A stretch of 64,000 nucleotides of DNA from Spizellomyces punctatus DAOM BR117 (GCA_000182565.2 KQ257464.1); one strand, 5' to 3'. Numbered from the stretch's first letter, positions 1-50,916 are shown. Notes: generated by a model not told the origin, from the sequence alone. Numbers and translations: made by a program.

Positions 1-456
1 ACCGAGCCTCAGACCAATCTTCAGCCGGCACAGCCCACATTCCAAGACTCCGCTGAGAGTGAAGAAGGAATCACCAGTGCTCTTCAACAGAGCAAAAATG
101 CCGTCGAAAAATCAGACACCTCCGTGAACGGATGTAGTAACTTGCTTAAAAAAAGCAAACTTGAATGTCCCGAGAAGAACGGAGGGGCAAGACCGCCCAA
201 CAAAAATTCCCTACCTAGTTCCTCTGCGTTGCATAATGATTCCGACTCTAGTGATATTCCACCAAACAACGTTCACCAGGAGGCAATGACGACATGGCTG
301 ACGAGCCTTCGTTCGCCATCACCGCCAATACCTACTCTCCAATTCAAGGATATAACAACCAGGTCTAAGCAGCAATCTATATCATTGTCTGTTGAGCAAC
401 CAAAGGTTGGTGGATGTGAAGTCGCAGTGAAACAACTTCATTTTGATGCTGTTTAA
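1..456 (+). CDS. 3' end of a hypothetical low-complexity protein (starts before the window)
   Basis: Frame 1 is open from base 1 to TAA at 454-456; S/P/Q-rich, no recognisable domain. Confidence 0.35.
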   Translation, partial: TEPQTNLQPAQPTFQDSAESEEGITSALQQSKNAVEKSDTSVNGCSNLLKKSKLECPEKNGGARPPNKNSLPSSSALHNDSDSSDIPPNNVHQEAMTTWLTSLRSPSPPIPTLQFKDITTRSKQQSISLSVEQPKVGGCEVAVKQLHFDAV

Positions 457-975
457 TTTGTATCATAGGACCCACCAACTTCCAAAAGACCGTCCTCGGA
501 CGAGCAGAAAGTAGCTGCAGCACTTGATCAGTTGCGTAATTTTGAAAGTATATTAGTGGAAGAAAGGCGACGATTGGATCAAGAAATGTCAAAGACTGCC
601 AAATAATATTAATACGCCTTTTCATTCGCTACGAGGTGCCTCTGAACGTTTCAAAATCATGATAACTGTATCACATGTAGTCCATAGAATGTGCATGCGG
701 AACGACGCAGCTTTTGGTGTAGAACATAGCAGCTTTTTGGTTAGAGGACTATCTCGTATCTCGTCAAGTGAACTCTAATGATTCCATGCGGAGTCTGTTC
801 AGATACTGACATTCCAAGATGAAGCTACCATAGTGCGGAAGTGATTGAAATGGCACTAGGACCCATTATTATCCGGATTAATCCGGTTAGTCATATCGCA
901 TAATCAGAACCCCCTTCTATCGCTTAATGTTTTTTTTTTTTTTCAGCTGGACCCCATTTTGCCACAATCGAGGTC

Positions 976-983
976 TATAAAAG
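976..983 (+). promoter_or_regulatory. TATA box inside ghost copy 1 (also at 3246-3253 in copy 2)
   Basis: CTATAAAAG followed by a pyrimidine-rich tract, identical in both copies. Confidence 0.5.
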
Positions 984-1079
984 GGGGTCATTACTCCCTC
1001 TTCCCTCTTTCCTCTTTACCCATCCTCGACTCTCGAAGCATCTGCGCAACGCCCACGCAGCACTCTCAAGTCCATCATC

Positions 1080-1314
1080 ATGAGAATGCCGCTCTGGTGC
1101 CGAGGACCTCGCCCTCCCAGCAAAAACAACATAACCCCTTGCAAACGCTGCTACTACTATATTGCTACGATCGCAGGTATGCATTATCTTTGTATTTTCC
1201 CACGCGGATTATCCAGTCTAATTATTCTGATCTACCTTAGTATCTGAACATCCTCCGACTAAAGAATTTCGGAATCAAGGGCTTAGTAGGATTTCTCTCG
1301 TGTGGTGGGCTTAG
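1080..1314 (+). CDS. Putative spliced 56-aa micro-ORF in ghost copy 1 (exons 1080-1176, 1241-1314)
   Basis: catcatcATG context; GTATGC...CTAAT...TTAG intron at 1177-1240; frame preserved in copy 2. Confidence 0.3.
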
Positions 1315-1399
1315 TTACCCGGTTAGAACAACCGTAATGTATTGCATGTGTAATTGGGCCTAGTAGTAGTTGGTTGGTTGTAAGGAGGGAATTACTTGG

Positions 1400-1489
1400 C
1401 TTTTCCGAACCAGTTGTCGCCGGTTTATTCCCTGGTGTAGTAGCTAGTGCCAGTTTCTGTCACCTAATACACTATCCAAGATCTCCGAC
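1400..1489 (+). ncRNA. Ghost omegaRNA 1 (scaffold ~1400-1474, guide from 1475 TCCAAGATCTCCGAC)
   Basis: CTTTTCCGAACCAGTTGTCGCCGGTTTATTCCCTGGTGTAGTAGCTAGTGCC aligns with the scaffold 3' of the Fanzor ORF (50931-50994); ends in CACTA. Guide length is inferred. Confidence 0.75.
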
Positions 1490-1611
1490 CAGCCTTATTT
1501 AACCTGATTGGATTCAGCATTGGATTGAAGTTCAACCGGAGAGAACCGTTTTACGGTTCTGCAAGCATGAAAGCAACTGTCAGATCTCACCTAGATCCTA
1601 TCAAGTAAAAC

Positions 1612-3063
1612 ATGCCATTAACAACCCTAGAACGAATCATAAACCTCAAGGAATCGTCGTCTTTGATAGTGATTGAAGACTCTACAAAACAGTCATGCGC
1701 TAGACTTTTGAAAGCTTTTGCAGCGTCAAGCATAGGTCCTGACAGGTAAGTTTCTTTGACCGTTGATTGACAAATAATCATGGCTAAAATTGCCTTGACA
1801 TCGAAGGAGGCTTGTGGTGGTGTCTGTCGAACAGGCGTACTGGAAATGGAAGCGAATACTGAATTTGGAGAGGTATGTGAAATGCTGAGGAATGCGGAAC
1901 CGATCGTTACTGACGGTACACTAAGCCTGACCATAATAGATGTATATTCCTCCTGCTTTTCATGGCTCGATCCTCCTGTGGCCGCCCCGGTCCGATCTGC
2001 TAATATCAAGAATCTGGTATCGGTAATCGAGACAGAGCTGCAAACCGGTACGCTCAATTGCTCTTTTGGATGTCGCGCTTTGGATTCACACCTGGAAATA
2101 TTCTCAGCGCAAAATGGACGAATCACTGTTCTATTTGATAGTATAAATCCGTTCCTGCTCCGTTATTCCTTGGCAACCGTGGCGCGATTGGTTAAGAGTC
2201 TATCTGCACTTGGTAGCGGTGAGGCAGCGCTGTTGGTTGATCCATGCATAACGGCAAAACCCCTCATGGATGTTATGGCGATTGCTAGATAATGTCCGAA
2301 TCATTCTCCCTTTCCACGGGGACGTACCCGTACTGGATGCGTCAGGAAATTCGCTAATACCTCCAATCGGGTCCGTCCTGGCGAACGCGGCCACAACATA
2401 TGTTACCGTCCGGCATGGAAAGGATTTTGGTATCATATTTGGACGCGATGGCGGAGCTGTGGATGTATTCGAAACTGTTGATGCGCATAATCCTGCCGGA
2501 GGAATATGTGAAGTACTTCACAAAAAGAAGTCTGGAAAGGTCCTACGTGAGGTTCGAAGCCGGGAATAATTGAGTTTGCTATTATATGAGGCGAATAGCT
2601 AAAGTGTGCCTTGCTACAGGCGGTGGCTTACAAAGTATCTGCTACGGACAGCGATCTCTTGACGTTTCACACGGTGGATGACCTGCGGTCTGTGAATGAT
2701 AGTCAGCCATCCCCCCCATCGAATCCCGCAGAGAGGACGGTATGCACAAAGACATCAATTGCGACTGATTCAATGAACCTATCTCATATATTGGTGTGCA
2801 GCCTGATCCGACCGCCAATCTTTCCTTCAACCTACGTCTAACCGATGAGCAGAAAGTAGCAAGAGCAGAGGTCGTGCTACCCTACATGAAGGCGCAAACT
2901 GCAGAAGGTCCATCTGAGACGGCAATATATTATGAGCCAGAGGATGATGATTACGATGACGAGGTACGTCTATTTAATCAGGATGATCTTATATTAGCAC
3001 ATCTGGCGCCTTTTAATATCACCATCCAATCGACAGGACCCGGATGCGGACCTGGATATATAA
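1612..3063 (+). CDS. ELP5: Elongator complex subunit 5 (Elp5/Iki1), multi-exon
   Basis: N-terminus MPLTTLERIINLKESSSLIVIEDS; C-terminal DPTANLSFNLRLTDEQKVARAEVVLPY..IYYEPEDDDYDDE|DPDADLDI* is typical of Elp5. Confidence 0.8.
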
Positions 3064-3098
3064 TTCCCACCAACGCAAATAAATACATATATACATAA

Positions 3099-3737
3099 AT
3101 TGATGGCACTAGAACTCATTATTATCCGGATTAATCCGGTTAATCATATCGCATAATCAGAACCCCCTTCTATCGCTCAAAGCGGTGAGGCATGCTAATG
3201 TATTTTTTTCTTTTTCAAACTGTGGTGAGGCGCATGCTGAAGGTCTATAAAAGGGGGTCATTACTCCCTCTTCCCTCTTTCCTCTTTACCCATCCTCGAC
3301 TCTCGAAGCATCTGCACAACGCCCACGCAGCACTCTCAAGTCCATCATCATGAGAATACTGCTCTGGTGCCGAGGACCTCGCCCTCCCAGCAAAAACAAC
3401 ATAACCCCTTGCAAACGCTGCTACTACTATATTGCTACGATCGCAGGTATGCATTGTCTTTGTATTTTCCCATGCATATTCCGAGTCTAATTCTGATCTA
3501 CCTTAGTATCTGAACATCCTCCGACTAAAGAATTTCGGAATCAAGGGCTTAGTAGGATTTCTCTCATGTGGTGGGCTTAGTTACCCGGTTAGAACAACCG
3601 TAATGTATTGCATGTGTAATTGGGCCTAGTGGTAGTTGGTTGGTTGTAAGGAGGGAATTACTTGGCTTTTCCGAACCAGTTGTCGCTGGTTTATTCCCTG
3701 GTGTAGTAGCTAGTGCCAGTTTCTGTCACCTCTACAC
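3099..3737 (+). mobile_element. Fanzor 'ghost' element, copy 2 (left TIR eroded)
   Basis: Direct repeat of 833-1472. CATA at 3094-3097, but the first ~11 bp of the left end (GTGCGGAAGTG) are missing. Right end ...CTCTACAC followed by TA (3738-3739). Confidence 0.85.
3350..3580 (+). CDS. Putative spliced 56-aa micro-ORF in ghost copy 2 (exons 3350-3446, 3507-3580)
   Basis: Same ATG, splice sites and stop as in copy 1. Confidence 0.3.
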
Positions 3738-3754
3738 TAAAAGTGCCAGCCCTG
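3666..3754 (+). ncRNA. Ghost omegaRNA 2 (scaffold ~3666-3739, guide from 3740 AAAGTGCCAGCCCTG)
   Basis: Scaffold homologous to 50931-50994; stems GAACCAG/CTGGTTT and GTGTAG/CTACAC can pair fully. Confidence 0.75.
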
Positions 3755-4265
3755 CTAGTGCGCACAGCTTGCGTTGTGTATGTGAGCGCGTGATTTTCCT
3801 TTCTCTTGCCTGCGCTTTCGAACAGATCTTGGTTCTCTTTCGTATGCATTGGGCTTGCTAGGGTCGTCATCTGATTCTGATCCTGACGATGATTCCGAGT
3901 CTGACGACTCGTCTATACTGTGTGGCTTGCGATATATGCAGCAGACTACAGAGATTGAAAAGGACCATGAGCAGCTGACAAATTCAACGTTATTCTACAA
4001 ACAGACAAGGCAGACCTTTGCTGCTTTTGCGGCCCATTCCCTCATTGTTCACAACATTTTCATCCCACTGAACTCGTCGTTCACTGAGGTTTCCGCCTCG
4101 GAGTAAGAGTGTTCCTGCATTCGGTATTTGCGTCGATGGTTGTTGGAGTAGTTGCTCTTCTTGGACTGTGATAGTTCGTGATCCAGTAGACAGAGGGGCG
4201 GTAGCCGTCACCAAGGACGAATTCGGTTCAGGTTCCGCCAGATGCGTTGTTTGTGGAGAGGGCAT
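3755..4265 (-). CDS. YPI1: PP1 regulator Ypi1/Inhibitor-3 (PPP1R11), two exons
   Basis: RRVQWDENVVNNEGMGRKSSK (RVxW PP1-binding motif), spliced to CCIYRKPHSIDESSDSESSS...PNAYER; stop at 3755-3757. Confidence 0.9.
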
Positions 4266-5337
4266 GTTGAGGTAATGAACAACTTGCAACCCACACGCAC
4301 ACGACGTCAAAGACCAGCTGTGAATCAAATGGGATGGAATGTATGCTTAGTCAGACGCCTCATTCTTTCGGGTCTTTTTGAGGATTTGCAACCAACACAA
4401 AGAAACGGGGGAACAATACAGGACACTCGCACACTTGCTGGTGGGGGAGGTGTGTGTTCGTTTTCTCTCCGCCGTCTCCCGTTGGAAATTGTCCTTTCTT
4501 GCTTACGCAGATCCCATCTGATCACTTGCATCATCTTAGAAGAAGGTGAGTATATCTGTCACACCCTGAAACCTAAAGCTGGTTGGTGAGGCGCGCAACA
4601 GTTTCAAGCAAAAAATCCTGTCTGGGTGTGTGTGGTCTATCCCTCGTTATGGGTTGCAAGCCCGTGACATCTCTTTGCGCCGTTTAAGCACTGGCCCCAT
4701 TGCACAACGAGCCTCGGACAACCTACCACACCTTGTTCTTACACCTATCGACGATTTAGATTTCGGTTCTTGTATTATCTACGAATCTGATCGGTGGTTG
4801 TCGCACGCATTGTGTCTCCATTTTTTTTTTTCAACTCGCATCGGTGGTCATCGGTCTCACCTTGAAAGACACTGCCCAGCTCGGAGATTATTTGTCACGC
4901 AGTCGTCTGTTGACCACTTGCAGAATTCTGGTGGATAGGGTGAGCGCCCTTTTCATCTTCCATTTCACGCGAAGATCGTATCGGGTTAAACCCATGCTTT
5001 CTTTTGTCTGACAACTAGTCACCTTCTACCCTGCAACCGTCCTGACTGATTCCGACTCTGCTGTCCATTATCCTTCTGCTCCGTTTCGATGACCCGGTAG
5101 CATCGACGCTTCCACAGCTTTCAATACCTGTAAAAATTCTTGTACAAAAGCACGACACTCCATTTTGTCCATACCCTCCTCTGTACAGCTCTTCCAAGCT
5201 ACACGTACTATTTCAGTAGTTTTGTACAACACGACCGACATCTGTTTATAAAAACCATTTTAACACACACTCGGCAACACCTCCGTACCTCCGACCAACG
5301 CTCAACATCTGTTTAATTATTGTTACGATCCGCAAGC

Positions 5338-8300
5338 ATGGGTGATTACAGTGGAATTGCGCAACCAAAGGCGAAAAACCAGCCTCAAGGACAGGTACGC
5401 GGAAAATCCCTTGCAGCGTCAGCACTCTGTGCGGTGTACTCATCTTGCAATTGTCCTCGCAGTTGGCCGCCCTTTTGCAAAGTCCTCTCAACTGGGACAT
5501 TGAACCAATGAACATGCCAAAGGAAATTGGCAGCAGGTCAAGTAGTGCACCTCCCGCCGGCATTCTAATGCCAGAAGGACCACGGGTATGTCTCCGAGAC
5601 GGCAGAGCGCTTTTGAGTTGATATCTCATGTCATTTCAATCAGGAGGTGGAAGAACCTGTCGTTGGCTCGGCCACCGATCCCCGTAGAGATCCTGAATAT
5701 GCCGCATACTATTATCATGCGTCAAGGCTAGACCCTCGTCTTCCTCCGCCTATCTATGCACCCGGCCAATCATGGCAAGTCTGGGCGCCGCCTGGGGTGA
5801 GCGGGAAAAACAAGGGACCTGAGGTGATGACACAGGCACCTGGGAAGAATTTGGAAAAGTTTAGAGGCTTCGGCATGGATGATGATTTCCTCAGTGATCA
5901 TCCGCTAGATGAAGTAAGTGGATATTATGAAATCCTACTTGGCGCGGTGATTAATTATAATGAATCCATTGCAGAGTTTGGAGCCAGAGGGCTTGTCGAC
6001 AAAGGATGGTAACGAGTATCGGTCACGCAGTAAAGCGCCTTTGCCTGATGCCAGAGCGGCCGCAGCAGATGCTCGCTTGAGCGATCCGCGATTATCCGAT
6101 CCTCGCTTGGCGGACCCAAGAATGGTCGACCCGCGAATGGCAGATCCTCGGTTGCTGGACCCGCGTTATGGTGATCCTCGGTTAGGTGATCCTCGAGTGA
6201 GCCCTGCATCTGCCTGGAGTAACGGAGATCTGCCGTCTCCTATGTCAATGCGAGGGGTTGACCTGGCAAGCTCTCCATCCAAGCGGAGAAACTTGGTGGA
6301 TTTAATTCAGGAAGATTTCCCACGGACTCCTTCTCCTGTTTTCGCAACTCGGCAAAGAATGGGCATGGATGAAAGTGGCGAAAAGCATGAGCTCAATGAT
6401 GTATTGAGAGATCAAATGCGCGCCGAACTTGAAGCGCAACTAGATCATTCCAACGACGATGAGCGATCTAGAATGGCCGCTGTCCTTAGTGCAGCAATGG
6501 ACACTCGTGATGAGTTGGCAACGGCCCCACCTCAGCGCTCCGCATCCACTCCGCCGTCGAATGTACACTACAATCAACTGCGAAATGCCATGCTACAAAA
6601 TTATGAAGATGAGATCCCACCAGAACTCCTACTTTCGATGAGAAATGTGAACCTAGGCGAAGTGAGAAATCTATTGACGAAATGTATCTGACTAGCTTCA
6701 CTTTTATTGACGCCGTAATTACTTCTAGTCATCATCCCAACAAAGAGTTGGCAACAAGCCACCAAAGATTGCGACTGGTTTTGATCGATTATACTCGGAT
6801 ATGTCTGCCCCTCGCAGCGCCGGCGCCTACCTTGGTGGATCGGCGCCATTGGCAAACTCGCTCATGGGAGGTTATCCAGGGACTTCAAGAGGTAGAGAAG
6901 CCGGTGGGTATGGTGATTTTCCTGTGGCAGCGCTCGCAAACTTACTCTTTTTGCGTTATATAGAGATGCTAGCTGCCTTAGAATTACAGCAACGCGCAGC
7001 CGCAGCTCGCAGCCCCATGTTTGAAGAAGAACTGCGGACGGGCGCCGCTCTCGGTTTAAACCATCCCAGTTTTGATCACAGACGATCCTATCCTGCTGGT
7101 ATTCCAGATGATTTGGCTTTGGCATATGCGTCTAGAAGGGCGGCTGCCAATCAACTCTACGAACCGAGTATGTTGCAAGCCTTAGCAAATCTGAACGGTG
7201 GGATGCCGGTAAATATGCCCATGAACATAGGGCGTGGCGGGGGATCTCTTTCTGAAAAAAAGCTGCGTTTGCTTGCCCAACAACAGTTGCTTCTTCGTGA
7301 ACAAATGCTTCGACGCGAATATTTTCAACAGTTGAATGGATTTCCTCCAGGCCGCAGACCTATTCCCTCTGATTTACCTTCACCCGGGGGACTAGCCGAT
7401 CCTGGACATGGGATGCGCAGCGCTCTCTTGGAGGAATTCCGTAATAATAAGAACAAGAAGTACGAATTGAGGGATATCGTTGGGAGTATCGTCGAGTTTA
7501 GCGGAGATCAGCACGGATCGCGGTTTATTCAACAGAAGCTCGAAACAGCCAACAGTGAGGAAAAGCAGTTGGTGTTTGACGAAATATTACCAAACGCTCT
7601 CCAGTTGATGACCGATGTATTCGGTAACTACGTTATCCAGAAGTTTTTTGAACATGGTACGTATCTTTGAAATTTTCATTATTGAAGTGAATGATTTTCT
7701 GATACCTTTCGCAGGCAACCAGATTCAAAAACAGATCCTAGCAAAGCAAATGGAAGGACATGTCCTCTCCTTGTCACTCCAGATGTACGGATGTCGTGTC
7801 GTTCAGAAGGCGCTCGAGCACGTGCTCACGGATCAGCAAGCAGTCTTGGTGCGGGAGCTCGATGGCAACGTTCTTAAATGTGTCAAAGATCAAAACGGCA
7901 ACCATGTTATTCAGAAGGCGATTGAGCGCGTTCCTGCAGAACATATCAAATTTATCATTGATGCCTTCCATGGGCAGGTGTACGCTCTTGCTACGCACCC
8001 ATACGGCTGCAGAGTGATACAAAGAATATTTGAGCACTGTGCTGACGAGGAGACAAAACCACTACTAGAAGAGCTTCACCGCTATACGATCAATCTCATT
8101 CAGGACCAGTACGGCAACTACGTCATCCAGCATGTTCTGGAGAGAGGAAAGCAGCAGGACAAGGGTTTGATCGTTAGCAAAGTCCGTGGGCAGGTTCTGC
8201 AACTTAGCAAACACAAGTTTGCAAGCAACGTTGTCGAAAAGTGTGTCGCCTTTGGTAGCAAAAAGGACCGCCAGCAATTGATTGACGAGGTTATTCAAAC

Positions 8301-34433: not shown

Positions 34434-35129
34434 GATGAGAATTCAAATAAAAAAAAAAAAAAAGAGAAAAAGAACGCGCGCACTTGAAGAGTGAGAGTGA
34501 ATTGAAATACTTTTCCTAAAAGAATAAATGTATATAACAAGCGTGTGTGTGTTTGATGATGACTGGGGGGATTAGGGGGGAATACTACTAATTGGAATTA
34601 GAGAGTAGAGAGGATATATGCATATCATTCATTCATTCAAACAAATACATTCACACACACTCTCTCTCTCTCACTCTCGTATGCATAGGGAAATATCCCA
34701 TATAATCATTTCATTCTCATTGCACTTGCTATTCCCATCTCTCTGTCTCTCTCTCTCATATTTCCTCGTGAGAATGACGCCATTTTCTCTCTCTCTTCTT
34801 CTTATTATCACGTGTTTATTCATTTCTCTCTTTCTTATTGAAGAGGGCTCAGCTACTGGTCATGTGATATTTCATCCACTCTTTATCGCACGTTTTTCTC
34901 TCTACTGCCGCTAGAGTTTTTGCACTTTGGTTTCAACTGGCTTGGACTGCAAGCGGCATGGCTTCTGCCAGAGATTGTATACGGAATCACTCAAGGTTGA
35001 CATGCCAATGCTTGTACTCTTTGTCAGCGGAGGGAGTGCTAGAGTGCAGAACAATCACAAATGGACTCCTTGTTCACTTACTGTATAATAATCTAAAGGG
35101 GAAGTTATTTGTGACGATATCAAAATTTG

Positions 35130-35537
35130 GATAGTTCATGAGCATGGCAAACTCGTTAGGACTCTCCTCAGCAGCTGGAGCCGCTCTTAATGGTTGAGGA
35201 GCTCCGCAGATCTCCCATTTCCCTATGCAGACGCATAGAGGTCACAACTCGCGTTACTCTTGAAATATTCGATATGAGTAAATAGGTCACAAAGTCGTTT
35301 CTGTGCATACCTCCTTGTTGACCAAAGCTTGGCCAACACAGCTGCCTTCCTGCGGCTTATCTGCCTTTGATTGTTGGACAAAAGTATGTGCCTCTCCGTC
35401 CACCTCCTTTCGACAGGCCACTCTGGCTCTTTCCTCCTCCGCTTTGAGCTCCTCAAGCTCCCTTTCCGTCAATCATGCTCTTTCTCCAACTTGGCCAACT
35501 CCTTCTCCAAGTGTTCTCGCTCCTCCTACTAGTGCAT
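35130..35537 (-). pseudogene. Coiled-coil family copy 1, pseudogene
   Basis: ATG CAC TAG TAG GAG GAG aligns with ATG CTC AAG TTG GAG GAG of copy 3; premature stops. Confidence 0.55.
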
Positions 35538-35842
35538 CCAATCTCCCACAGTTACGGGCCGTTGGATTGGAAAGATTCTGGCTTTTCTCGCCCATGGTAA
35601 ACATTCCAACCTGGCGGCACAGTCACGTACCAAGTATCTGTAACAACGTTACACGTCCTTTTTGGTCAACAAAAAGTCTTCCTGTGTTTAACAACTCGTA
35701 TCAATGTATCCGCCAGACAAGTCGTTCAAATCACAAAGAATTATGCTTGCTAATCATGTTGATGGAATGGCTTGATGAATCCATGAGTGTTTAGAATGAC
35801 GTTGGAATGGCGTGATGAGTCTATAATTGTTTAGAGTTGTCC

Positions 35843-36423
35843 TCAAATGCTAGGTTCGACGTCAAGATCCAGTTTCTTGGGAGCACCATCAGCAGCAGGA
35901 GCCGCATCATCCAAATCATCCAAATCATCCAAAGACGTCAATGGTGTCCTCAAAGCCCCCATCTCCCGATGGAGATACAATGAGGTCGCAGCTTGGGCAA
36001 CTAACGGAGCTTGACCTTGACGCTGAGATTCGAGATGTTTGCGGTTCTAGATATTGGATGTAAGGTCGAACATTGCAAAACGAGCAGTATAATAGGTATC
36101 GGTTTTGTGCTTACCGCCTTCCTGAGTTCCCTAAGTTTGTCCTCCACCGCTATCTTCTTCTTACGCAACTCTGTCTTCTTGTTAATCAACTCTATCCTCT
36201 TCTTGAGCAACTTATTCCTTGTCTCGGTCAACTCGTCCATCTTGTTCCACATCGCCCAAAGCTCCGCCCCCTTTACACGCTGGCTTTTCAACTCTAGCAG
36301 CTCAATTCTGATCGGCAATATCTCCAGCTGTAGCAAGTCATCCTCTTTGTTTACCTCGGCTGCCTCCTTCTCCAAATTTTCCAGCTCTTGTTCCAAACTT
36401 TCCCGCTCCTCCATCTTGAGCAT
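35843..36423 (-). CDS. Coiled-coil family copy 2 (two exons)
   Basis: MLKMEERESLEQEL...VEDKL, GTAAGCAC intron donor, exon 2 ...LHREMGALRTP...DDAAPAADGA...*. Confidence 0.6.
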
Positions 36424-36768
36424 TACCGTTGAATTGGAGAGAAGCTGGCCTTGATATAGTTTTTCTCGCCCATGGGCAAACATTTAGGAATGGCGGCACA
36501 GTCACATACTAAATGTAATCTGTACCAAGAATAACCATCGTTTTGGTCAACAAAAAGGCAAAGGAGTGTTTATTCATAGGATGTAGCCGCAACTATAGTC
36601 TAGAAGAAAAAGATGTGTTTAGCAGTGAACTACTGCGTCCGTAGGCTTCAACGTGGCAAAATATATGTGCGGCACTGCAAAAGTACAGATGCACGGCCTT
36701 AAAGAAACAAAATGCAAAAATTAGATGCTGGTCAATAAGATACAAAGATGCTGAATGGCATGATGAAT

Positions 36769-37339
36769 CTATGGTTGTTTAGAAATGCTGGTTTCGAAAT
36801 CCTGGGAAGCACCATCAGCAGCAGGAGCCGCATCATCCAAAGACGGCATTGGCTTCCTTAAAGCTCCCATCTCTCGATGGAAACGCAAAGAGGTCAAAAC
36901 TCTGGTCACTACCCGAGCTTGAGCTCGACGACGTTTGCGGGTCTTAATAATTATTGGATATGAGTGTTTGCAAGAAGGCAGTATAATAGGTAGGTTATCA
37001 AGTCGGTTTTGTGCTTACCTCCTTGATAAGCTTGTCCTCTGCCGCCTTTTTCTTCTGTCTCAACTCTTTTTCCCTCTGATACAACTGTTCCCTCCTCTCA
37101 TACAACTCGCTCCTCCTGTCAATCAACTCGCTCGTCCTGTCAATCAACTCTATCAATCTCTCCCGTAACTCATCCTCCCTATCCTCCAACCACGAAGGTT
37201 CCTCCACTAGTAAGCGCCGTCTTTTCAGCTCCTGCCGCTCAATGTCGACCGTTCTTATCTCCTGCTGCAGCATTTCATCCTCTTTCTTTAACTTGGCTAG
37301 CTCCTTCTCCAACTTATCCCGCTCCTCCAACTTGAGCAT
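36769..37339 (-). CDS. Coiled-coil family copy 3 (promoter inverted)
   Basis: MLKLEERDKLEKEL...AEDKL, same intron, exon 2 FHREMGALRKP..DDAAPAADGA. Confidence 0.55.
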
Positions 37340-37733
37340 CCAATCTCTTACAGTTAATGGCCGTTGAATTGGAAAGACGCTTTGTTTTGCCTTTCGCCTT
37401 TTTGTTGACCAAAACGATGGAACAGATTTCATTTGGTACGTGACTGTGCCGTTAATGTTGAATGTTTGGCCATGGGCGAGAAAGGCTATATCAATGCCAT
37501 CAATCGGTGTTTATTCATAGGATGTAGCCGCAACGGTGTGGCCTGGAAGAAGGCTTCAAAGTGGCAAAATATGTCTGCGCCAATGCATATGTACAGATGC
37601 ACGGCTTTAAGAAACTAGTGCAAAAAAGTTATGCTGGTTATATCCAAAAACGCTAAACATCTGAATGATTTGTTGCATCTATTGTTGATTAGAAAGATCC
37701 TGAACACTAGTTTTGAGATCCTGATGAGCACCA

Positions 37734-38406
37734 TCACGCGGCAGGAGCCGCGTCACCCAATAACGATTGCGTCCTCAAAGTGCCCATCTCCCGATGAAGA
37801 CGCAAAGAGGCCGCAACTTGGGTAACTACCCGAGCATGACCTCGACGCCGGGATTTGAGACGCCTGCGGTTCTTAAATATTGGATGTGAGGTTGAAATTT
37901 TGCAAGACAGCAATATAATAGGTAAGTCATAGACTTGGTTCTGTGCTTACCTTCTGGTGGACCTCCGCAAGCTCGGCAATCACCGTGTCTTTCCTCTGTA
38001 TCAACTCAAAGAGGCTATTTTCCAGCTCCCTCGTCCTATTTCGCAGCTCGATCATCCTTGTGAGCATAGCGTCCGCATTCCCGCCTCGTTCCACTACCCT
38101 ATCCCATTCAACCTGAACCGCCAGCAACCCTTGATCTGTCTGTTGCTCCTCTTTGCGTATCTCAGCCAGCTCTTTTTCCAACTTTGCCACGTCTATCTTA
38201 TGTCGCAGCTCATCCTTCCTATTTTGTAGCTCCATCATCCTTGTAATCAAAGCGTTCCCATTCCCACCCCGCCCCACTACCCCATTCCACTCAACTCGAG
38301 TCGCCCTCAACTCCTCCGCCGTCCGCTCCTCCTCGCTCTGTAACTCGGCAAGCTGCTCGCCCAAGTCTTTGCGCTGTTGCAGTGCAAGCATTCTATCCTC
38401 CACCAT
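37734..38406 (-). CDS. Coiled-coil family copy 4 (internal duplication)
   Basis: Two VEW..VV.RGGN..A..TRM.EL.NR units; same intron; exon 2 LHREMGTLRT..GDAAPAA*. Confidence 0.55.
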
Positions 38407-38789
38407 GGAGGGTAGTTTGCAGAAAAGACGCGGGCCTTGAATGTAGAATTATTGTTAGCAATTGACCTTTTGTTTTTGATCTCCCGAACCTAGAATTCAC
38501 CTCTAGGCCTGGATATAGTAATTGATCCTTTCTCGATCACGCAAAGGTGGCACGGTCACGTACCAAATGCACATCTGTAAACATCATTTTTGGGTCAACA
38601 AAATAGACAGAGGATGACAATTGGTGTTTCTTTATAGTAATAGCCTCATTTGGTTGAGTTCTGCATGTCTATTTCGATGGAATAAGTCAACAGCCCCGTA
38701 ATCTATAACAGACGTTGCTCCAGATCTACCGTGACTAAAATGACGGTCTTTAGCAAAGCTGCTGCAAACTACCCTCCATAGAGGATAGA

Positions 38790-38978
38790 ATGCGTGCGCT
38801 GCAGCAGCGCAGAGATTTGAAAGAGGACTTGGCCAAGTTACATAGAGAGCAGGCGGTATTGGACTGGCAGATTGAGGACGGGAGCCATGGACGAGATCCA
38901 ACGAAACAAGCAATGAAAGTGTATTTACAAGATGCAAAAAGAAAGACAAACCTACCCGTCATGTCGTTATTCACGTGA
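38790..38978 (+). pseudogene. Coiled-coil family copy 5, 5' fragment head-to-head with copy 4
   Basis: MRALQQRRDLKEDLAKL resembles MLALQQRKDLGEQLAEL; shares the upstream CAAACTACCCTCCAT in inverted orientation. Confidence 0.45.
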
Positions 38979-39408
38979 TATCTCCCAAATCTCTCACGTG
39001 AGATCGACAAGGGCGACCATGGAACACTCCCGATGGCTACCGTGGCTAACTCACACATCTTGAACGATTGCCTACTGTACATATCGACTATTTACAGCTG
39101 CAACTCGTTAAGCCAACGATAGAGAATCACATTAACATACTATTGCTTTTTTATTCTGACCTTTTGTTAGGCCGTACTCTGCAGCCTTAACTGCCAAGTC
39201 ACTATGAATAAAAACAAACATGCTTCCCTTTTTTCCCTTTTGCGTTTGAACGGGTGGTACGTGACTGTACCATCACACTCTTACCAGGGTCGGAAAGAAC
39301 TGGACTATTTATAAAAATGTGGGGATGAAGGAGGATCCTCCAATGCTAAAGCTAGAGATATAGTATTTACTTTACACATGCGGAGGGGAGAGTAAGTTGG
39401 AAGTCAGC

Positions 39409-39644
39409 ATGGCGGCCAATAGGATTTCCGCGGCAGAGAAGCTCAAGCGCGGATTGGCCAAGGTGGCAGAGTTGGATAAAGAGAGGGCATTACCCAAACT
39501 GTGACTTCGTTGCGTCTCAATCGGGAGATGGGGGCTCTGAGGACGCCATTGTCGTCTTTGGGTGACGCGGCTCCTGCCGCGGATGGTGCTCACCAGAACC
39601 TGGACATCAAACCTAGCGTTGAAGACTTTTCTGAACAATCATAG
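39409..39644 (+). pseudogene. Coiled-coil family copy 6, internally deleted
   Basis: Short exon-1 remnant fused out of frame to exon 2 (CGGGAGATGGGGGCTCTGAGGACGCC...GACGCGGCTCCTGCC). Confidence 0.5.
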
Positions 39645-39816
39645 ATTCATCCAAGCCATTCAGACGCCAACATGATTAGCAACTCGGATCTTCTTTTGTT
39701 AACCAGGATAATATTGCATTTGTTTGTCAAAAGCCGTACTTCGATCCATATGCAGTGTGAGAGCAACGCACATGTTCAATGATCCGTCTCCCGAATAAAA
39801 CTAGAGACACAGATGG

Positions 39817-40060
39817 CCACCTCGGAAGCCAACGACCACCCATTACCCCATCTCATCATAACGTTCTGGCTGTTTCTAGGCCACATAATCATCCCGGACT
39901 CATGTGGCGACGTACTACGATCGCCAGCCCTGTATGACTAAACACAAATCCCCACCTCGCCAGCCAACGCCCCCTATTACCCACTCATCAAAACATCTTT
40001 GGTCTGGCCTGTGCCTAGGCGATACATTCATCCCAGACTCAAGTGGCAACGTACTATGAA
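39817..40060. repeat. Degenerate ~105-bp direct repeat (39817-39920 and 39952-40060)
   Basis: CCACCTCG..AGCCAACG...ATTACCC...CTAGGC...TCATCCC.GACTCA.GTGGC.ACGTACTA occurs twice. Confidence 0.7.
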
Positions 40061-40660
40061 TAAACATAATTGAATCCTGCATTCTTGTACTACACTATGA
40101 ATAAGCAAATTGACCAAAACCACGGGTATTCTTGTAACAGATTTCATTTGCTACGTGACTGTGCCATCCATTTGTTTGCATGATCGAGAAAAGAACACTT
40201 ACTATATCAAAGCCCAGCGTCTTTGCTCTAATCCTGCTTTTCGCTAAAAAGCTGTTGGACTAGTTATTTTTGGCTCGAGCATTCAAGGTATGTACAAAGA
40301 GTAAAAGATATGGTGGGAATAACTTAAAAGGAGGGCAATGGGGGGGTCCCCCGAAGAGAGGTAACTAGTTTTGACAAGATGGATATTCCACTCACTCTTG
40401 AGCAAAGATGCAACTGAAAGGGCCATCAAGGAGCGCAAAAAGCGCACGAAGCGCGCAACACGAACGAGGTTCATTATTTTTTGAATGTATTTCACTGAAG
40501 TTTTACTGATCAAAAATTCATCTATTAGAGACATCGCCTCGAGGTTTGGCCATGGTGTTTGGACTGTTACACTATGAACTTCAACTTATAGTCACTTTTG
40601 CAATTAAGGTCCGACGTGATCAACGTCTTTTCCGGGCTTCTTCCCGTGAAGATTGCCGGG

Positions 40661-41292
40661 ATGGTGGCCGAAGAGCGGCCCCCAACGGCGGGGGCCAAGA
40701 TGCGTGCCTTGGGGGAGAGGGATAAGTTGCACGAGGACCTGGCTGCGTTGGTGAGAGAGCAGGAAGAGATGGAGGTGGAGATCCGGGCGGTGGAGAAGGA
40801 GGAGGACGAAACCAAGCAGAAGCTCGTTGCGGTGATGGCTGAGATGGGGGTGTTTGCAAAGCCGGGGCGAGAGGGGGAGGAATGGAAGGTGCTGTATGAC
40901 CGGATGAGAGAGTTGTGGGGGGTGCAGAGCGAGGTGGAGGCCAGGAAGAAAGAGCTGCAACGGAGGAGAAAGGTGGTGGAGGACAAGCTTACCGAGGTCT
41001 ATCAGCAGGTAAGCACAGAACCAAGTTTATGACCTACCTATTATACTGCTTTCTTGCAAACGTTCACCTCATGTCAAAAATATTCAAGATTCGCAAACGT
41101 CTTAGATCTCAGATTCGAGCTCAGGCTCGGATAGCGACCCGAGCCGTGACCTCTCTGCGTCTCCATCGGGAGATGGGAGCTCTGAGGACCTGCCCTTCCC
41201 CTGTGAGGGATGAGGCGGCTCTTGCCGCTGAGGGTGTTCTCGCACCATGCAAGTCCCCTGGGGAGACAGCAGGGGACGGATCCAGCAGTTGA
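40661..41292 (+). CDS. Coiled-coil family copy 7 (two exons)
   Basis: MRALGERDKLHEDL...VEDKL, GTAAGCAC donor at ~41009, exon 2 LHREMGALRT..DEAALAAEG. Confidence 0.6.
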
Positions 41293-41617: not shown

Positions 41618-41694
41618 CCGGCAGACGACGAACCACCACCACAGATTTCGTACGTTTGGCACGGCTCAGTTTCCGTACTCCTTTGATCCAACCC

Positions 41695-41810
41695 GAACCC
41701 CTTGTCGTGCTCGCGATGACCCATTGTCATGACTTAACTCGAATCCTTTGTCATGCGCGATGACCCAATTGTCGTGACCCAGCTCAATCCCCTTGTCGTG
41801 CATGATGACG
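41695..41810. repeat. ~45-bp degenerate tandem repeat, ~2.5 copies
   Basis: CC(C/T)TTGTC(G/A)TGC...GATGAC units. Confidence 0.6.
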
Positions 41811-49029: not shown

Positions 49030-50916
49030 ATGCCACCAAAAAAGAAGCAAAAGCTTGAAAACCCTACTTGCTTACATACCTGCAACAAGACTTCCTTTGC
49101 AAAAGCTTTCCTGCCAAACGACATCTACCGCCAACGGCTTTTAGATTACATCGCCATCATCCATCAACTTGCTGACCATGCTTCCCACGCTCTCAAATTC
49201 TACATCCTATCTGCACCATCCTTTCCCACGTTAGATCAAGATACAATCGAAGCGATTCTCTATCTTCTCAACAAAGGAGAGGCTTGGCAACCAAAAGCTG
49301 ATGCAAAGAAGGCGCTACGTGGATGCTTGGTGCCATATATTCGTCGGTACTGCCACATCGTCAGCTTCGTTCATCCAAATCTACAAAAAGAGCAGCAGTC
49401 AATCAATTACCTGACAGCGAGTATGATGACGAACCTGAAAGTCAACGTTCAAGAGCATTTCATGCAGATGCTCCTTCGGTATATCAATCTGCGGCTCGAT
49501 GTGAAGGGACAGAAGCAGCGACTGCCACTGAAAAGCGATGCACGGAAAGCTTTCTTTACTCGACTACGCTACTTAAAGTCAGTTTTTCTTTTTGATATCG
49601 TGCCCGAGTCGCTGGATGACTTGACCGCTGAAGAGAGTGAGCTTCTAGAAGAGATGTGGTCCTTCATTCCCCTTTCCGACCAGCCGCTCGCATATTCGGT
49701 TGCTGTTGACCCTCTCGCTTTCTTTCCTGCTTACTGCAAACTCTCTGTGCTGTATGAACGACATGGCTTCCGTCGGTTCAGCGCAATACCTCTTCGTCGG
49801 TCTCTGATTCAGTCCCATATTCGCATCGACACGGTCATCCTGTACCAGCATATCCTTTGCATCACGCGACGGGAAGCGGAAACTGTTGAAAAGGTCGACT
49901 TATGGTTGCGCATCTGTAATCTGCGGAACAAGGCTTTTAGATCTCGTCGTGGAATGTGTTTTGAAGGCTCGATCACGACAGACGGTACCTCGGTGTCAGT
50001 TTACTTGAAACATCCTGAAGCTGACAAGTATGGAAAGCGCAGCGGCGGAGGGAAAAAGTCAGCAAACACAATGGAGGCAGAGGTTAAAGCGCAATATGTG
50101 GAGAAAAACTTACCTGCTTGTCGAGTAGCAGAGAATGTTGTTGTTATCGACCCAAACAAGCGCGACATTCTCTACTGCCAAGACAGCATTGGTACAACAT
50201 TTCGCTACACCGCCAACCAGCGAGCCATGGAGACAGGTAGCCGTCGACAGCAAAAGGAACGACAGCAGATGAAGAAGGGGGAAATTGACCTCATAGAATC
50301 ACGTATCCCTAGCCACAAAACAATGAACCTCATGGATTTTACTCGCTACCTTCTCGTTCGCCGCGCGGATTCGGATCGTCGCAAGGAATTCTACTCACAT
50401 CCTGCCCACACGCGGTGGAAGTGGCACTCCTTCATCAATCGGCAGCGAAGCGAATCAGACCTCATAAGCGCCATGCGCAACAAATACGGTGAAAACTTTA
50501 CCGTTGTGATGGGTGATTGGAGCGACGCCGGTCGAACTGCCAGATTTCAGACCTCATCAAAGACAAAAGGTTGGCGCACCCTCTTTAAGCGGAACAGGAT
50601 CAACTGCTTCCTTCTCGACGAGTACAAGACCTCATCTGTCTGCCCTCACTGTTCATCCGATGACTTCCTTGAAAAAGGCTTCAAAACACGACCTCATTCA
50701 AGACCTTGGCGACGACGAGAAGGCAATGTTGAAAAAGTCCATGGATTGCTGGGTTGTACCAACCCTAACTGTTTGCAGCAAGACTGGACATCGGGAATGC
50801 GCTACTGGAACAGGGACACACTGAGCACCTGCAATATGCTGATGATCGTGCAATCAATTATGGATGGACACGGTAGACCAGAGGTGTTCAGCAGGAGTGT
50901 TCCAGCCGTAGCGTAG
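49030..50916 (+). CDS. Fz1: Fanzor1 RNA-guided DNA endonuclease (eukaryotic TnpB/Cas12 relative), 628 aa, intronless
   Basis: NLS-like PPKKKQK; TDG motif; RuvC I VVIDPNKRD (D374), RuvC II LLDEYKTSSVC (E531), zinc finger CPHC...CTNPNC, RuvC III WNRD (D596). Closely resembles SpuFz1 as I recall it. Confidence 0.96.
   Translation: MPPKKKQKLENPTCLHTCNKTSFAKAFLPNDIYRQRLLDYIAIIHQLADHASHALKFYILSAPSFPTLDQDTIEAILYLLNKGEAWQPKADAKKALRGCLVPYIRRYCHIVSFVHPNLQKEQQSINYLTASMMTNLKVNVQEHFMQMLLRYINLRLDVKGQKQRLPLKSDARKAFFTRLRYLKSVFLFDIVPESLDDLTAEESELLEEMWSFIPLSDQPLAYSVAVDPLAFFPAYCKLSVLYERHGFRRFSAIPLRRSLIQSHIRIDTVILYQHILCITRREAETVEKVDLWLRICNLRNKAFRSRRGMCFEGSITTDGTSVSVYLKHPEADKYGKRSGGGKKSANTMEAEVKAQYVEKNLPACRVAENVVVIDPNKRDILYCQDSIGTTFRYTANQRAMETGSRRQQKERQQMKKGEIDLIESRIPSHKTMNLMDFTRYLLVRRADSDRRKEFYSHPAHTRWKWHSFINRQRSESDLISAMRNKYGENFTVVMGDWSDAGRTARFQTSSKTKGWRTLFKRNRINCFLLDEYKTSSVCPHCSSDDFLEKGFKTRPHSRPWRRREGNVEKVHGLLGCTNPNCLQQDWTSGMRYWNRDTLSTCNMLMIVQSIMDGHGRPEVFSRSVPAVA

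What the first reader, a model, noticed from the sequence alone, without database searches (positions are those of the whole stretch)
976..1474. Ghost interior looks like a spliced Pol II unit with a 56-codon ORF leading into the omegaRNA
Seen in both copies: TATAAAAG; a catcatcATG context matching PDI (catcatcATG) and Fanzor (tatcatcATG); a GTATGC...CTAAT...TAG intron (64 and 60 nt); and a spliced ORF MR(M/I)(P/L)LWCRGPRPPSKNNITPCKRCYYYIATIAVSEHPPTKEFRNQGLSRISL(V/M)WWA. Differences between copies, including indels, cluster in the intron. I see no homology to the Fanzor ORF, so this is not a simple internal deletion. Inference: a dedicated host transcript for guide production, possibly encoding a micropeptide. 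Caveat: all three exon substitutions are non-synonymous, so the peptide may be unconstrained.
Basis: partly seen in the sequence, partly recalled or inferred. Interest (0 to 1): 0.78.

Follow-up and report, generated by a model that had tools for sequence, protein, structure and literature searches.

The report
Ghost Fanzor element carries spliced gene
The short Fanzor "ghost" transposon copies in this chytrid fungus carry their own promoter, a short reading frame and a real intron, and RNA data show that this unit is transcribed at very high levels and spliced just upstream of the guide-RNA scaffold.

Summary
Both copies (about 829-1474 and 3103-3739) hold TATAAAAG, catcatcATG, a GTATGC..CTAAT..TAG intron of 64 or 60 nt, and a 56-codon spliced ORF.

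The object is already known. It is a "ghost Spu-1" element of Spizellomyces punctatus (Saito 2023, PMC10432273), and copy 1 is letter for letter one of the published loci.

- Sense-strand depth rises from 3 reads at 1003-1010 to 7,563 at 1035, which is 28-60 nt behind the TATA box.
- Depth stays at 5,500-50,000 up to the right end, against 0-8.5 in the flanking genes.
- Depth inside the intron is only 9-18.
- 442 reads carry the exact 1176/1241 junction, and about 18,000 more begin in exon 2 with an unplaced exon-1 tail.
- The DNA run keeps the intron.

These depths are sums over the family. At most 1-3% of reads carry the alleles of copies 1 and 2.

Across 19 copies, the splice signals are kept in 19 and the exon-1 frame is open in 16. 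The exon-2 part of the ORF varies in frame and length (45 to about 92 codons). A conserved 56-aa micropeptide is therefore not supported, but selection to keep exon 1 open is plausible.

It is inferred, not shown, that this RNA is the omegaRNA precursor. My searches found no description of the interior unit in print.

The parts
829..832 (+). CATA: the conserved CA plus the TA target-site duplication. It equals the published SpuFz1 TAM.
   Evidence: Read directly. The CA motif and the CATA TAM are stated in PMC10432273. The same CATA precedes the Fanzor element near 48868.
831..860 (+). 5' inverted repeat of ghost copy 1 (30 nt)
   Evidence: It is the inverted complement of 1445-1474 and is similar to the left end of the Fanzor element. 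It is near-identical to the annotated 'end' features of published ghost loci.
976..983 (+). TATA box (TATAAAAG)
   Evidence: It is exact in 17 of 19 copies examined. RNA coverage starts 28-60 nt downstream.
1011..1035 (+). Interval that holds the transcription start. It is bracketed, not pinpointed.
   Evidence: sense depth is 3 reads at 1003-1010, 7,563 at 1035 and 33,603 at 1053.
1080..1176 (+). Exon-1 part of the short ORF (32 codons plus 1 base), ATG in a catcatcATG context
   Evidence: No indel reaches 5% of reads here, and 6 of 10 listed variant sites are synonymous. The frame is open in 16 of 19 copies.
1177..1240 (+). Spliceosomal intron, 64 nt, GTATGC..CTAAT..TAG
   Evidence: RNA depth is 9-18 inside the intron against 5,521 and 14,702 beside it; 442 junction reads; the intron is present in the DNA run X1 (contigs 1125-1196 and 1167-1302, 0 differences).
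1241..1314 (+). Exon-2 part of the 56-codon ORF, stop TAG at 1312-1314. It is not conserved as coding sequence.
   Evidence: Frameshifting indels occur at 1261 (21% of reads), 1273 (22%) and 1301 (19%). Other copies use other frames and lengths.
1315..1399 (+). Transcribed spacer between the ORF and the scaffold. It has stops in all three frames, and part of it is conserved across subfamilies.
   Evidence: Depth 35,000-50,000; stop positions; similarity to other subfamilies by eye.
1400..1474 (+). 75-nt omegaRNA scaffold, including the 3' inverted repeat (1445-1474) and the TA
   Evidence: Matches the Fanzor 3' region 50930-50968. The published definition is a 75-nt scaffold that encompasses the 3' IR. 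The stem-1 variants at 1412 and 1421 give A-U or G-C.
1475..1489 (+). Expected 14-15-nt guide (flank). Inferred only.
   Evidence: By analogy with the published transcripts, which extend 14-15 nt beyond the scaffold. Not resolved; depth at 1501-1600 is 0.13.
3103..3739 (+). Ghost copy 2: TATA 3246-3253, ATG 3350, exon 1 3350-3446, intron 3447-3506, ORF stop 3578-3580, scaffold 3666-3739. Its 5' inverted repeat lacks about 11 nt.
49030..50916 (+). Full-length Fanzor (SpuFz1-family) gene, the likely protein partner acting in trans. Its own 3' omegaRNA region 50917-50995 is cut by a run of N.
   Evidence: It is 80-87% identical to about 20 S. punctatus proteins.

Best explanation
The stretch 829-1474 (and its copy at 3103-3739) is a non-autonomous 'ghost Spu-1' element of the SpuFz1 Fanzor transposon family. 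Its roughly 550-nt interior is a small gene-like unit that belongs to the element.

The unit runs in this order: a TATA-box promoter; a start site about 30-60 nt downstream; a leader with an AUG-initiated short ORF; one spliceosomal intron; then a second exon that runs without a break into the 75-nt omegaRNA scaffold at the right end.

Shown here:
- The family is transcribed on the sense strand at very high levels from just behind the TATA box.
- The intron is removed from more than 99% of the RNA.
- The promoter and splice signals are kept across copies.

Inferred:
- RNA polymerase II makes the transcript.
- The spliced RNA is the precursor from which Fanzor proteins, made in trans by the full-length copies, take the 3' scaffold plus a 14-15-nt guide copied from the flank. 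This would let the ghost be restored at CATA-flanked empty sites.
- The short ORF is kept open across the exon junction mainly to make the RNA behave like a normal mRNA (export, stability, escape from nonsense-mediated decay), not to encode a defined 56-aa product.
For: RNA run X23:
- Sense depth is 22.6 at 901-1000, 21,375 at 1001-1100, 45,232 at 1301-1400 and 0.13 at 1501-1600. The flanking genes show 0-8.5.
- More than 99% of reads lie on one strand. That strand is the sense strand, calibrated by the GT..AG joint and by the + strand neighbour gene at 2801-3000.
- Depth in the intron is 9 (place 1186) and 18 (place 1232).
- 442 reads carry the 64-nt GT..AG skip at 1176/1241.
- Loose ends at 1239 (12,437 reads) and 1247 (5,839 reads) carry the end of exon 1.

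Other runs:
- Run X3, which is cDNA because its contigs skip six neighbour-gene introns, shows the same intron depletion: 186-279 against 8,213-30,254.
- DNA run X1 keeps the intron and shows no joint.

Family conservation (plus the window):
- GT..AG borders and a branch-like CTGAC or CTAAT in 19 of 19 copies, although the intron sequence differs between subfamilies.
- TATAAAAG in 17 of 19 copies.

Public gene models: two NCBI mRNA models shown in the supplement of PMC10432273 start in a ghost, use the ghost intron and run through the right end. They are SPPG_07821 and SPPG_05704. One molecule can therefore span exon 1 to beyond the scaffold.

Scaffold:
- 39 nt at 90% identity to the Fanzor 3' region.
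- Variant frequencies at 1412 (A>G, 27%) and 1421 (C>T, 65%) fit the compensating pairs A-U and G-C in stem 1.
- Ghost scaffolds guide SpuFz1 in human cells (PMC10432273 section 9; PMC13434818; passages read).
Against: - All depths are sums over more than 100 copies laid at 92% identity or more. Only 54-170 of 5,505 reads carry the AG at 1119-1120 that copies 1 and 2 have, so transcription of these two copies themselves is not shown.
- Reads are 60 nt or shorter, so no read links exon 1 to the scaffold.
- The start site is only bracketed. The tool listed no sharp sense-strand start (table 6).
- Depth falls from 31,088 at 1421 to 4,684 at 1453, and the guide region could not be resolved. Whether the abundant RNA carries a guide is unknown.
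- The published native small-RNA data were reported for four Fanzor loci, not for ghosts.
- Copy 1 has an A.C mismatch in stem 1, and copy 2 has a truncated 5' repeat.
- Polymerase II was not tested.
- One annotated mRNA starts 4 nt upstream of the TATA box, so annotated 5' ends are imprecise.
Confidence: 0.68

Rival explanations
1. The unit is a protein-coding micropeptide gene. The spliced ORF, or at least its first 15-40 residues with the kept motif W-C-R-G-P-R-P-P-(D), is translated into a product that selection keeps, for example a regulatory nascent peptide.
For: - In exon 1, 6 of 10 variant sites seen in reads are synonymous against 21.5% expected (P = 0.009; the other two frames give 2 and 1).
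- In the CRGPRPP codons, all 5 variable sites among copies are third positions (P = 0.001, chosen after seeing the pattern).
- Indels in exon 1 among open copies are all multiples of three (by eye).
- The ATG context has A at -3 in every copy seen.
- The exon-1 frame is open in 16 of 19 copies.
Against: - The three exon differences between copies 1 and 2 are all non-synonymous.
- 3 of 19 copies have stops or frameshifts in exon 1 but keep the promoter and splice sites.
- Among the long-exon subfamily, changes outside the motif are mostly non-synonymous (about 15 against 3, by eye).
- The exon-2 part has frameshifting indels in 19-22% of reads. It is read in different frames, giving 45, 56, 72, 75, about 79 and about 92 codons in different copies.
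- No homologue longer than 98 aa was found (weak evidence).
- No translation data were available.
Confidence: 0.2
2. The unit mainly acts as a mobile promoter and first exon. Ghost insertions upstream of host genes supply a strong TATA promoter and a spliced 5' leader, and that is why the structure is kept. Guide production is incidental.
For: Two NCBI mRNA models start in a ghost, splice its intron and run through the right end into host coding sequences: exportin CRM1 SPPG_07821 and SPPG_05704, whose CDS starts about 200 nt past the right end.
Against: - At copy 1 there is no read-through: depth is 0.13 at 1501-1600, and the downstream gene at 1601-2800 has 0-0.7.
- The unit is kept in copies that are not followed by a gene in the same direction.
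- The scaffold is the best conserved part in the published alignment (legend of Extended Data Fig. 3).
- I saw the annotation of only a few loci.
Confidence: 0.08
3. The abundant spliced RNA and the omegaRNA are separate products. The 5' unit is a relic of a captured or ancestral gene that is still transcribed, and guides are made from another start near the scaffold.
For: - Depth over the scaffold-proximal part (35,000-50,000) is higher than over exon 1 (5,500-7,900).
- A shorter ghost form lacking 916-1341 exists in DNA (X1 joint 915 to 1342, depth 6), so an element can exist without the unit.
Against: - The depth difference is explained by more subfamilies sharing the 5'-most leader and the 3' part than share this exon 1. 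For example, at 1053, 99.5% of reads carry the allele of other subfamilies.
- Coverage has no gap between exon 2 and the scaffold.
- No second TATA-like element was noted by eye in 1241-1399; no scan was run.
Confidence: 0.12

Closest known systems
Ghost Spu-1 elements of Spizellomyces punctatus (Saito et al. 2023, PMC10432273; sections 7, 9 and 11 and figure legends read, supplement 6 read in part)
   Same: This is the same object. It has 30-nt inverted repeats with CA upstream, a conserved interior of about 550 nt, no Fanzor ORF and a 75-nt 3' scaffold like that of the Fanzor loci. Copy 1 is letter for letter one of the 134 published loci.
   Different: The paper treats the interior only as a 'conserved region of around 550 nt'. 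Its main text contains neither 'intron' nor 'TATA', and 'promoter' appears only for vectors. The promoter, short ORF, intron, very high expression and read-through into host genes are not described there. I could not see its PDF supplements or the figures themselves.
Chlamydomonas reinhardtii Fanzor guide RNA from the 3' UTR of the Fanzor mRNA, plus 20 stand-alone copies (Jiang et al. 2023, PMC10530073; passages read)
   Same: A eukaryotic guide RNA lies at the 3' end of a polymerase II-type transcript, and extra guide copies exist without the protein gene.
   Different: There the host transcript is the Fanzor mRNA itself, and no promoter or intron of the stand-alone copies is described in the passages read. 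Here the protein ORF is replaced by a short ORF with its own intron.
Bacterial non-autonomous IS200/IS605 derivatives that keep the omegaRNA, and TnpB processing of its own mRNA into omegaRNA
   Same: A short element keeps the transposon ends and the guide scaffold and relies on the nuclease in trans. The guide is cut out of a longer transcript.
   Different: These are prokaryotic, with no spliceosomal intron, no TATA promoter and no AUG-led leader.
Spliced non-coding host genes of small RNAs in animals and fungi, such as snoRNA host genes with short ORFs (recalled from memory)
   Same: An mRNA-like polymerase II transcript with a short, poorly conserved ORF and introns, whose useful product is a small structured RNA.
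   Different: In those genes the small RNA usually lies in an intron. Here it is the 3' end of the last exon, and the whole unit is mobile.

Membership tests
Ghost Spu-1 element (Saito et al. 2023) | Two 30-nt inverted repeats similar to, but distinct from, those of the Fanzor loci | tested here: met
   831-860 and 1445-1474 are inverted complements. They resemble the Fanzor-element ends near 48870-48900 and 50960-50995.
Ghost Spu-1 element (Saito et al. 2023) | Conserved CA upstream of the 5' repeat (with TA it gives the CATA TAM) | tested here: met
   CA at 829-830 before TA at 831-832. CATA also precedes copy 2 and the Fanzor element.
Ghost Spu-1 element (Saito et al. 2023) | Conserved interior of about 550 nt without a Fanzor ORF | tested here: met
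   The interior is about 585 nt. The only similarity to the Fanzor element outside the ends is 1399-1437.
Ghost Spu-1 element (Saito et al. 2023) | The 3' 75 nt are similar to the region between the Fanzor stop codon and the 3' repeat | tested here: met
   39 nt at 90%, E 6e-7; alignment.
Ghost Spu-1 element (Saito et al. 2023) | Listed among the published loci | tested here: met
   The sequence from exon 1 to about 880 nt past the right end (window 1051-2350) is identical in supplement 6, part 76.
Spliceosomal GT-AG intron | GT and AG borders, a branch-like site, absent from RNA but present in DNA | tested here: met
   One search gives the signals. One search gives the 64-nt GT..AG skip in 442 reads, intron depth of 9-18 against thousands beside it, and DNA contigs that cross both borders.
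TATA-box polymerase II promoter | TATAWAWR box with transcription starting a few tens of bases downstream | tested here: met
   TATAAAAG at 976-983. Coverage starts between 1011 and 1035; the start is bracketed, not mapped.
TATA-box polymerase II promoter | Dependence on RNA polymerase II (cap, alpha-amanitin sensitivity) | not testable with these tools
   Inferred from spliceosomal splicing and the mRNA-like layout only.
Functional SpuFz1 omegaRNA | Scaffold fold with stem 1 kept by compensating changes | tested here: inconclusive
   The allele frequencies at 1412 and 1421 fit A-U or G-C pairs. Their linkage on single reads was not seen, and the fold z-scores of -1.1 to -2.4 are weak.
Functional SpuFz1 omegaRNA | Mature RNA of scaffold plus a 14-15-nt guide, bound by Fanzor and directing cleavage | not testable with these tools
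   Published for other ghost scaffolds in human cells, not for these copies. The 3' end was not resolved.
Micropeptide (sORF) gene | Amino-acid sequence and length conserved among copies | tested here: not met
   The exon-2 part differs in frame and length (45 to about 92 codons). 3 of 19 copies are broken in exon 1. Only the N-terminal motif looks constrained.
Micropeptide (sORF) gene | Evidence of translation | not testable with these tools
   No ribosome profiling or proteomic data were at hand.

The most novel reading that the evidence does not exclude
A transposon-borne guide-RNA gene disguises itself as a host mRNA. The ghost carries a strong TATA promoter, a well-placed AUG, a reading frame that selection keeps open across a real intron, and then the omegaRNA as its 3' end.

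Translation through the exon junction would clear the junction complex and shield the precursor from nonsense-mediated decay. The kept N-terminal W-C-R-G-P-R-P-P-D peptide might in addition stall ribosomes to control how much RNA is released for Fanzor loading.

This would be the first native pathway described for making eukaryotic OMEGA guides. The same unit also hands strong promoters to host genes.
Probability: 0.25. Interest if true: 0.8.

Novelty: new variant of a known kind. Interest (0 to 1): 0.6.

Why it matters
How Fanzor guide RNAs are made in their native hosts is an open point. Published work used U6 or yeast promoters, and native small-RNA data were reported only for four Fanzor loci.

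Ghost elements outnumber Fanzor genes (134 loci against 42), and their scaffolds give some of the best editing activity. If they are expressed from their own polymerase II promoter as spliced, mRNA-like precursors at three to four orders of magnitude above the neighbouring genes (family sum), three things follow:
1. The guide pool in the cell is likely dominated by ghost guides.
2. There is a natural design for polymerase II-driven guide expression in eukaryotes.
3. A mobile strong promoter with a first exon is being scattered next to host genes; two annotated chimeric mRNAs were seen.

All of this can be tested directly in S. punctatus, which can be transformed (PMC7213984, search listing only).

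Tried and rejected
- The window's own genome could not be searched; none is held.
- Earlier scan notes: none for this genome.
- A metagenome scan with the scaffold motif found 0 loci. No second scan was made.
- Rfam found no family in 700-3900 at E up to 1.
- Pfam found nothing in the window's Fanzor ORF, although its relatives carry a precomputed PF26935.
- A search for proteins longer than 98 aa that share the 56-aa peptide gave 2 word candidates and none scored. This is weak evidence that exon 1 is not the start of a longer annotated protein. The 'near' length class was not searched.
- Single-sequence folds of the scaffold were not clearly better than shuffles (z = -1.1, -2.4 and -1.3). One search failed on an N and was repeated one base shorter.
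- A word search of the supplement for this subfamily's exon 1 gave mostly chance hits in flanks. Only two useful loci came from it.
- Stops in all three frames ahead of the scaffold could mean a 'stop wall'. I rejected this as evidence, because a stop within 160 nt of non-coding sequence is expected by chance.
- Simple internal deletion of the window's Fanzor gene was rejected. The interior shares nothing with that ORF or with its promoter region beyond the repeats.
- siRNA or DNA contamination as the source of the reads was rejected, because more than 99% of reads lie on one strand and the intron is depleted.
- Run X10 (root metatranscriptome) holds one 153-nt contig over 1273-1425 with 5 differences. 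I draw no conclusion about habitat from it.

Full report
WHAT IS THERE

The window is fungal-type eukaryotic DNA with short GT..AG introns. It holds two copies of a roughly 640-nt repeat, at about 829-1474 and 3103-3739. Over 971-1474 the copies differ by 15 events.

- TATAAAAG at 976-983 and 3246-3253.
- The ATG at 1080 and 3350, in a catcatcATG context.
- Introns 1177-1240 (64 nt) and 3447-3506 (60 nt), with GTATGC, CTAAT and TAG.
- A 56-codon spliced ORF.

Seven of the 15 differences between the copies fall in the 64-nt intron (P = 0.0013).

A full-length Fanzor ORF lies at 49030-50916. The repeat shares with that element only two things. One is the inverted-repeat ends. The other is 39 nt at 90% identity just upstream of the right end (1399-1437 against 50930-50968).

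IDENTITY

The Fanzor ORF is 80-87% identical to about 20 proteins of Spizellomyces punctatus DAOM BR117. This is the SpuFz1 family.

Saito et al. 2023 (PMC10432273; sections 7, 9 and 11 and legends read) describe 134 'ghost Spu-1' loci in that genome. Each has a conserved region of about 550 nt between 30-nt inverted repeats, with CA upstream of the 5' repeat. The 3' 75 nt resemble the omegaRNA scaffold of the Fanzor loci. Ghost scaffolds guided SpuFz1 in human cells. A 2026 paper reused 126 of these scaffolds (PMC13434818, passages read).

The window's copy 1 meets each of these features: CA at 829-830, repeats at 831-860 and 1445-1474, TA at both ends. From exon 1 to about 880 nt past the right end (window 1051-2350), it is letter for letter identical to one locus in Supplementary Data 2 of that paper. 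The object is therefore already catalogued. What is in question is its interior.

RNA EVIDENCE

I laid four runs on window 1-3000 at 92% identity or more.

Run X23 consists of raw RNA reads of 60 nt or less, from the same species label as the best DNA holder.
- Sense-strand depth is 0-7.5 over 1-800 and 22.6 at 901-1000.
- It then reaches 21,375 at 1001-1100, 6,711 at 1101-1200, 17,273 at 1201-1300, 45,232 at 1301-1400 and 14,542 at 1401-1500.
- It falls to 0.13 at 1501-1600 and stays at 0-8.5 out to 3000.
- The opposite strand has 37-175 over the same bins, less than 1%.

The sense assignment rests on two checks: the GT..AG orientation of the joint, and the + strand neighbour gene at 2801-3000, whose reads also have the first mate on +.

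At single places the sense depth is 3 at 1003-1010, 7,563 at 1035, 27,305 at 1046 and 33,603 at 1053. The RNA therefore begins between 1011 and 1035, which is 28-60 nt behind the TATA box. The tool listed no sharp start place, so this is a bracket.

Inside the intron the sense depth is 9 (place 1186) and 18 (place 1232), against 5,521 at 1172 and 14,702 at 1279.
- A 64-nt GT..AG skip, equal to 1176/1241, is carried by 442 reads from 17 start places.
- A further 12,437 reads beginning at 1239 and 5,839 beginning at 1247 carry unplaced 5' tails. Their consensus is the end of exon 1 joined to the start of exon 2.
- More than 99% of the RNA is therefore spliced.

Run X3 was guessed to be DNA, but its contigs skip six GT..AG introns of the neighbour gene, so it is cDNA. 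It shows the same picture: 186-279 in the intron against 8,213-30,254 beside it, and a loose end at 1176 that continues with exon 2.

Run X1 is DNA. It has an unspliced contig over 1445-1804 and a flank depth of 2.1-3.4. It holds the intron at the same depth as the exons (25-54 against 54-78). Its contigs 1125-1196 and 1167-1302 cross both intron borders with no difference, and it shows no joint. The ghost depth in X1 is 44-292, that is, tens of copies.

LIMITS OF THE RNA EVIDENCE

- All of this is a family sum. At 1119-1120 only 54 and 170 of 5,505 reads carry the AG of copies 1 and 2. At 1035, 1046 and 1053, 98.6-99.5% of reads carry alleles of other copies.
- The peaks at the 5'-most leader and at 1300-1420 are higher than exon 1 because more subfamilies share those parts.
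- Transcription of copy 1 itself is not shown. If copy 1 is transcribed, its RNA does not run past about 1500.
- Reads this short cannot join exon 1 and the scaffold on one molecule.
- The guide region (1475-1489) could not be resolved.

OTHER COPIES

I read parts of Supplementary Data 2 of PMC10432273. I found loci by word searches for exon-1 motifs, so the sample leans towards copies that keep that motif. With the two window copies this gives 19 distinct copies. One further record repeated a sequence already counted and was dropped. Counts are by eye.
- GT at the 5' border, AG at the 3' border and a CTGAC or CTAAT branch-like site: 19 of 19. This holds although the intron of the long-exon subfamily cannot be aligned with the one here.
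- TATAAAAG: 17 of 19. One copy has TGTAAAAG and one has TATAAAAT.
- Exon-1 frame open from the ATG to the 5' splice site: 16 of 19. The three broken copies have a frameshift, a CGA-to-TGA change, and a TGG-to-TGA change with a 1-nt deletion.
- Three 9-letter words from the R-G-P-R codons occur 23, 29 and 28 times in the file. About 27 would be expected if all 134 loci held them, because a word is visible in only 2 of 10 line phases. This is a rough estimate that includes some chance hits.

Two NCBI mRNA models shown in that file start inside a ghost, use the ghost intron and run through the right end into a host gene.
- SPPG_07821, exportin CRM1.
- SPPG_05704, join(706..889,949..1558), with the ghost ends at 550-579 and 1154-1184 and the host CDS starting at 1388. 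Its splice borders are the exact counterparts of 1176/1241.

The spliced unit is therefore implicit in the public annotation, and single models span exon 1 to beyond the scaffold.

IS THE ORF CODING?

For:
- In exon 1, 6 of the 10 variant sites that reach 5% of reads are synonymous third positions, against 21.5% expected (P = 0.009). The other two frames give 2 and 1. The table omits 8 less-supported rows.
- No indel reaches 5% of reads in exon 1.
- Among the open copies, the exon-1 indels I saw are all multiples of three.
- In the codons for C-R-G-P-R-P-P, all five variable sites are third positions (P = 0.001, a test chosen after seeing the pattern).

Against:
- The three exon differences between copies 1 and 2 are all non-synonymous.
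- 3 of 19 copies are broken in exon 1.
- In the long-exon subfamily, changes outside the motif are mostly non-synonymous (by eye, about 15 against 3).
- Exon 2 carries frameshifting indels in 21%, 22% and 19% of reads (places 1261, 1273 and 1301).
- The ORF ends after 45, 56, 72, 75, about 79 or about 92 codons in different copies, using different frames of homologous sequence.
- No protein longer than 98 aa shares the peptide (weak evidence).

My reading is that a defined 56-aa micropeptide is not supported. Selection to keep exon 1 open across the junction, and perhaps for the N-terminal motif, is plausible but unproven.

MECHANISM

Shown:
- An element-borne unit with a TATA box, a start about 30-60 nt downstream and an efficiently removed spliceosomal intron.
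- Continuous sense coverage into the scaffold.
- Very high family-level expression.

Known from the literature: the 75-nt scaffold plus a 14-15-nt flank guide works with SpuFz1 at CATA-flanked targets.

Inferred:
- Polymerase II makes the transcript.
- The spliced RNA is the precursor. Fanzor protein from the full-length copies binds the 3' scaffold and the leader is trimmed away.
- The guide copied from the flank (1475-1489 for copy 1) matches the CATA-flanked empty site, which would allow restoration of the ghost after excision.

Stem 1 of the scaffold shows alleles at 1412 (A>G, 27% of reads) and 1421 (C>T, 65%). These frequencies fit A-U or G-C pairs. Copy 1 itself has A.C.

NOVELTY

- The words Fanzor and ghost occur together in 2 papers of the library. 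I read the relevant passages of both.
- The Saito main text contains neither 'intron' nor 'TATA', and it uses 'promoter' only for vectors.
- Searches for Fanzor with non-autonomous, with intron and promoter, and with polymerase II gave no description of such a unit in the listings and passages I read.
- Jiang et al. (PMC10530073, passages read) report Chlamydomonas guides from the Fanzor mRNA 3' UTR and 20 stand-alone copies. That is the nearest precedent.
- I could not see the figures, the PDF supplements or subscription journals.

I therefore rate this a new feature of a known element.

VERDICT

Interest 0.6.

Noticed in passing
window 389-475: A cDNA contig of run X3 skips 87 nt with CT..AC borders, that is, an intron on the minus strand. 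The stranded RNA reads over 101-700 lie mostly on the plus strand, and a plus-strand ORF ends at 606. This may be an antisense transcript.
   Followed up: no
window 915-1342: DNA run X1 holds a shorter ghost form in which 916-1341 (promoter, both exons and intron) is replaced by 37 other letters, at depth 6. This is a mini-ghost with only the ends and the scaffold (tables 5 and 5c).
   Followed up: no
window 1439: 5,574 RNA reads leave the ghost sequence at 1439 and continue with one uniform 16-nt sequence (agreement 0.98) instead of the 3' inverted repeat. One or a few highly expressed copies therefore have a different 3' end (table 7).
   Followed up: no
window 901-1000: Upstream of the TATA box, both strands have about 22 reads of depth, and minus-strand molecules end at 919-924. 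This suggests weak divergent transcription from the ghost promoter.
   Followed up: no
window 925-970 against 3178-3240: The stretch just upstream of the TATA box is unrelated in the two copies. Copy 2 and most published loci have a repeated GGTGAGGC(G)CATGC-type motif there. Copy 1 has another sequence, also seen in one published locus. These are two promoter-proximal variants.
   Followed up: partly
window 3090-3125: The 5' inverted repeat of copy 2 lacks about 11 nt relative to copy 1 and to the Fanzor element, so copy 2 may no longer be mobile.
   Followed up: partly
window 1412 and 1421: Copy 1 has an A.C mismatch in stem 1 of the scaffold. Copy 2 and the Fanzor locus have A-U and G-C.
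   Followed up: partly
window 48868-51095: The Fanzor element has CATA before its left repeat, TATATAAG about 55 nt before the ATG, and an intact 628-codon ORF. Its right end is cut by a run of N at 50996-51095. No identical protein appeared in the protein collection.
   Followed up: partly
published ghost loci (supplement 6 of PMC10432273): The 5' leader of the long-exon subfamily holds one to four tandem copies of a unit of about 21-22 nt (of the type CTCATxGCGACCCACAxxGCAAC) between the start site and the ATG.
   Followed up: no
window 35876-41622: There are several inverted repeats of 63-115 nt (35925-41189) and tandem repeats of 48 and 69 nt at 41248-41622. They are unrelated to the finding.
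   Followed up: no
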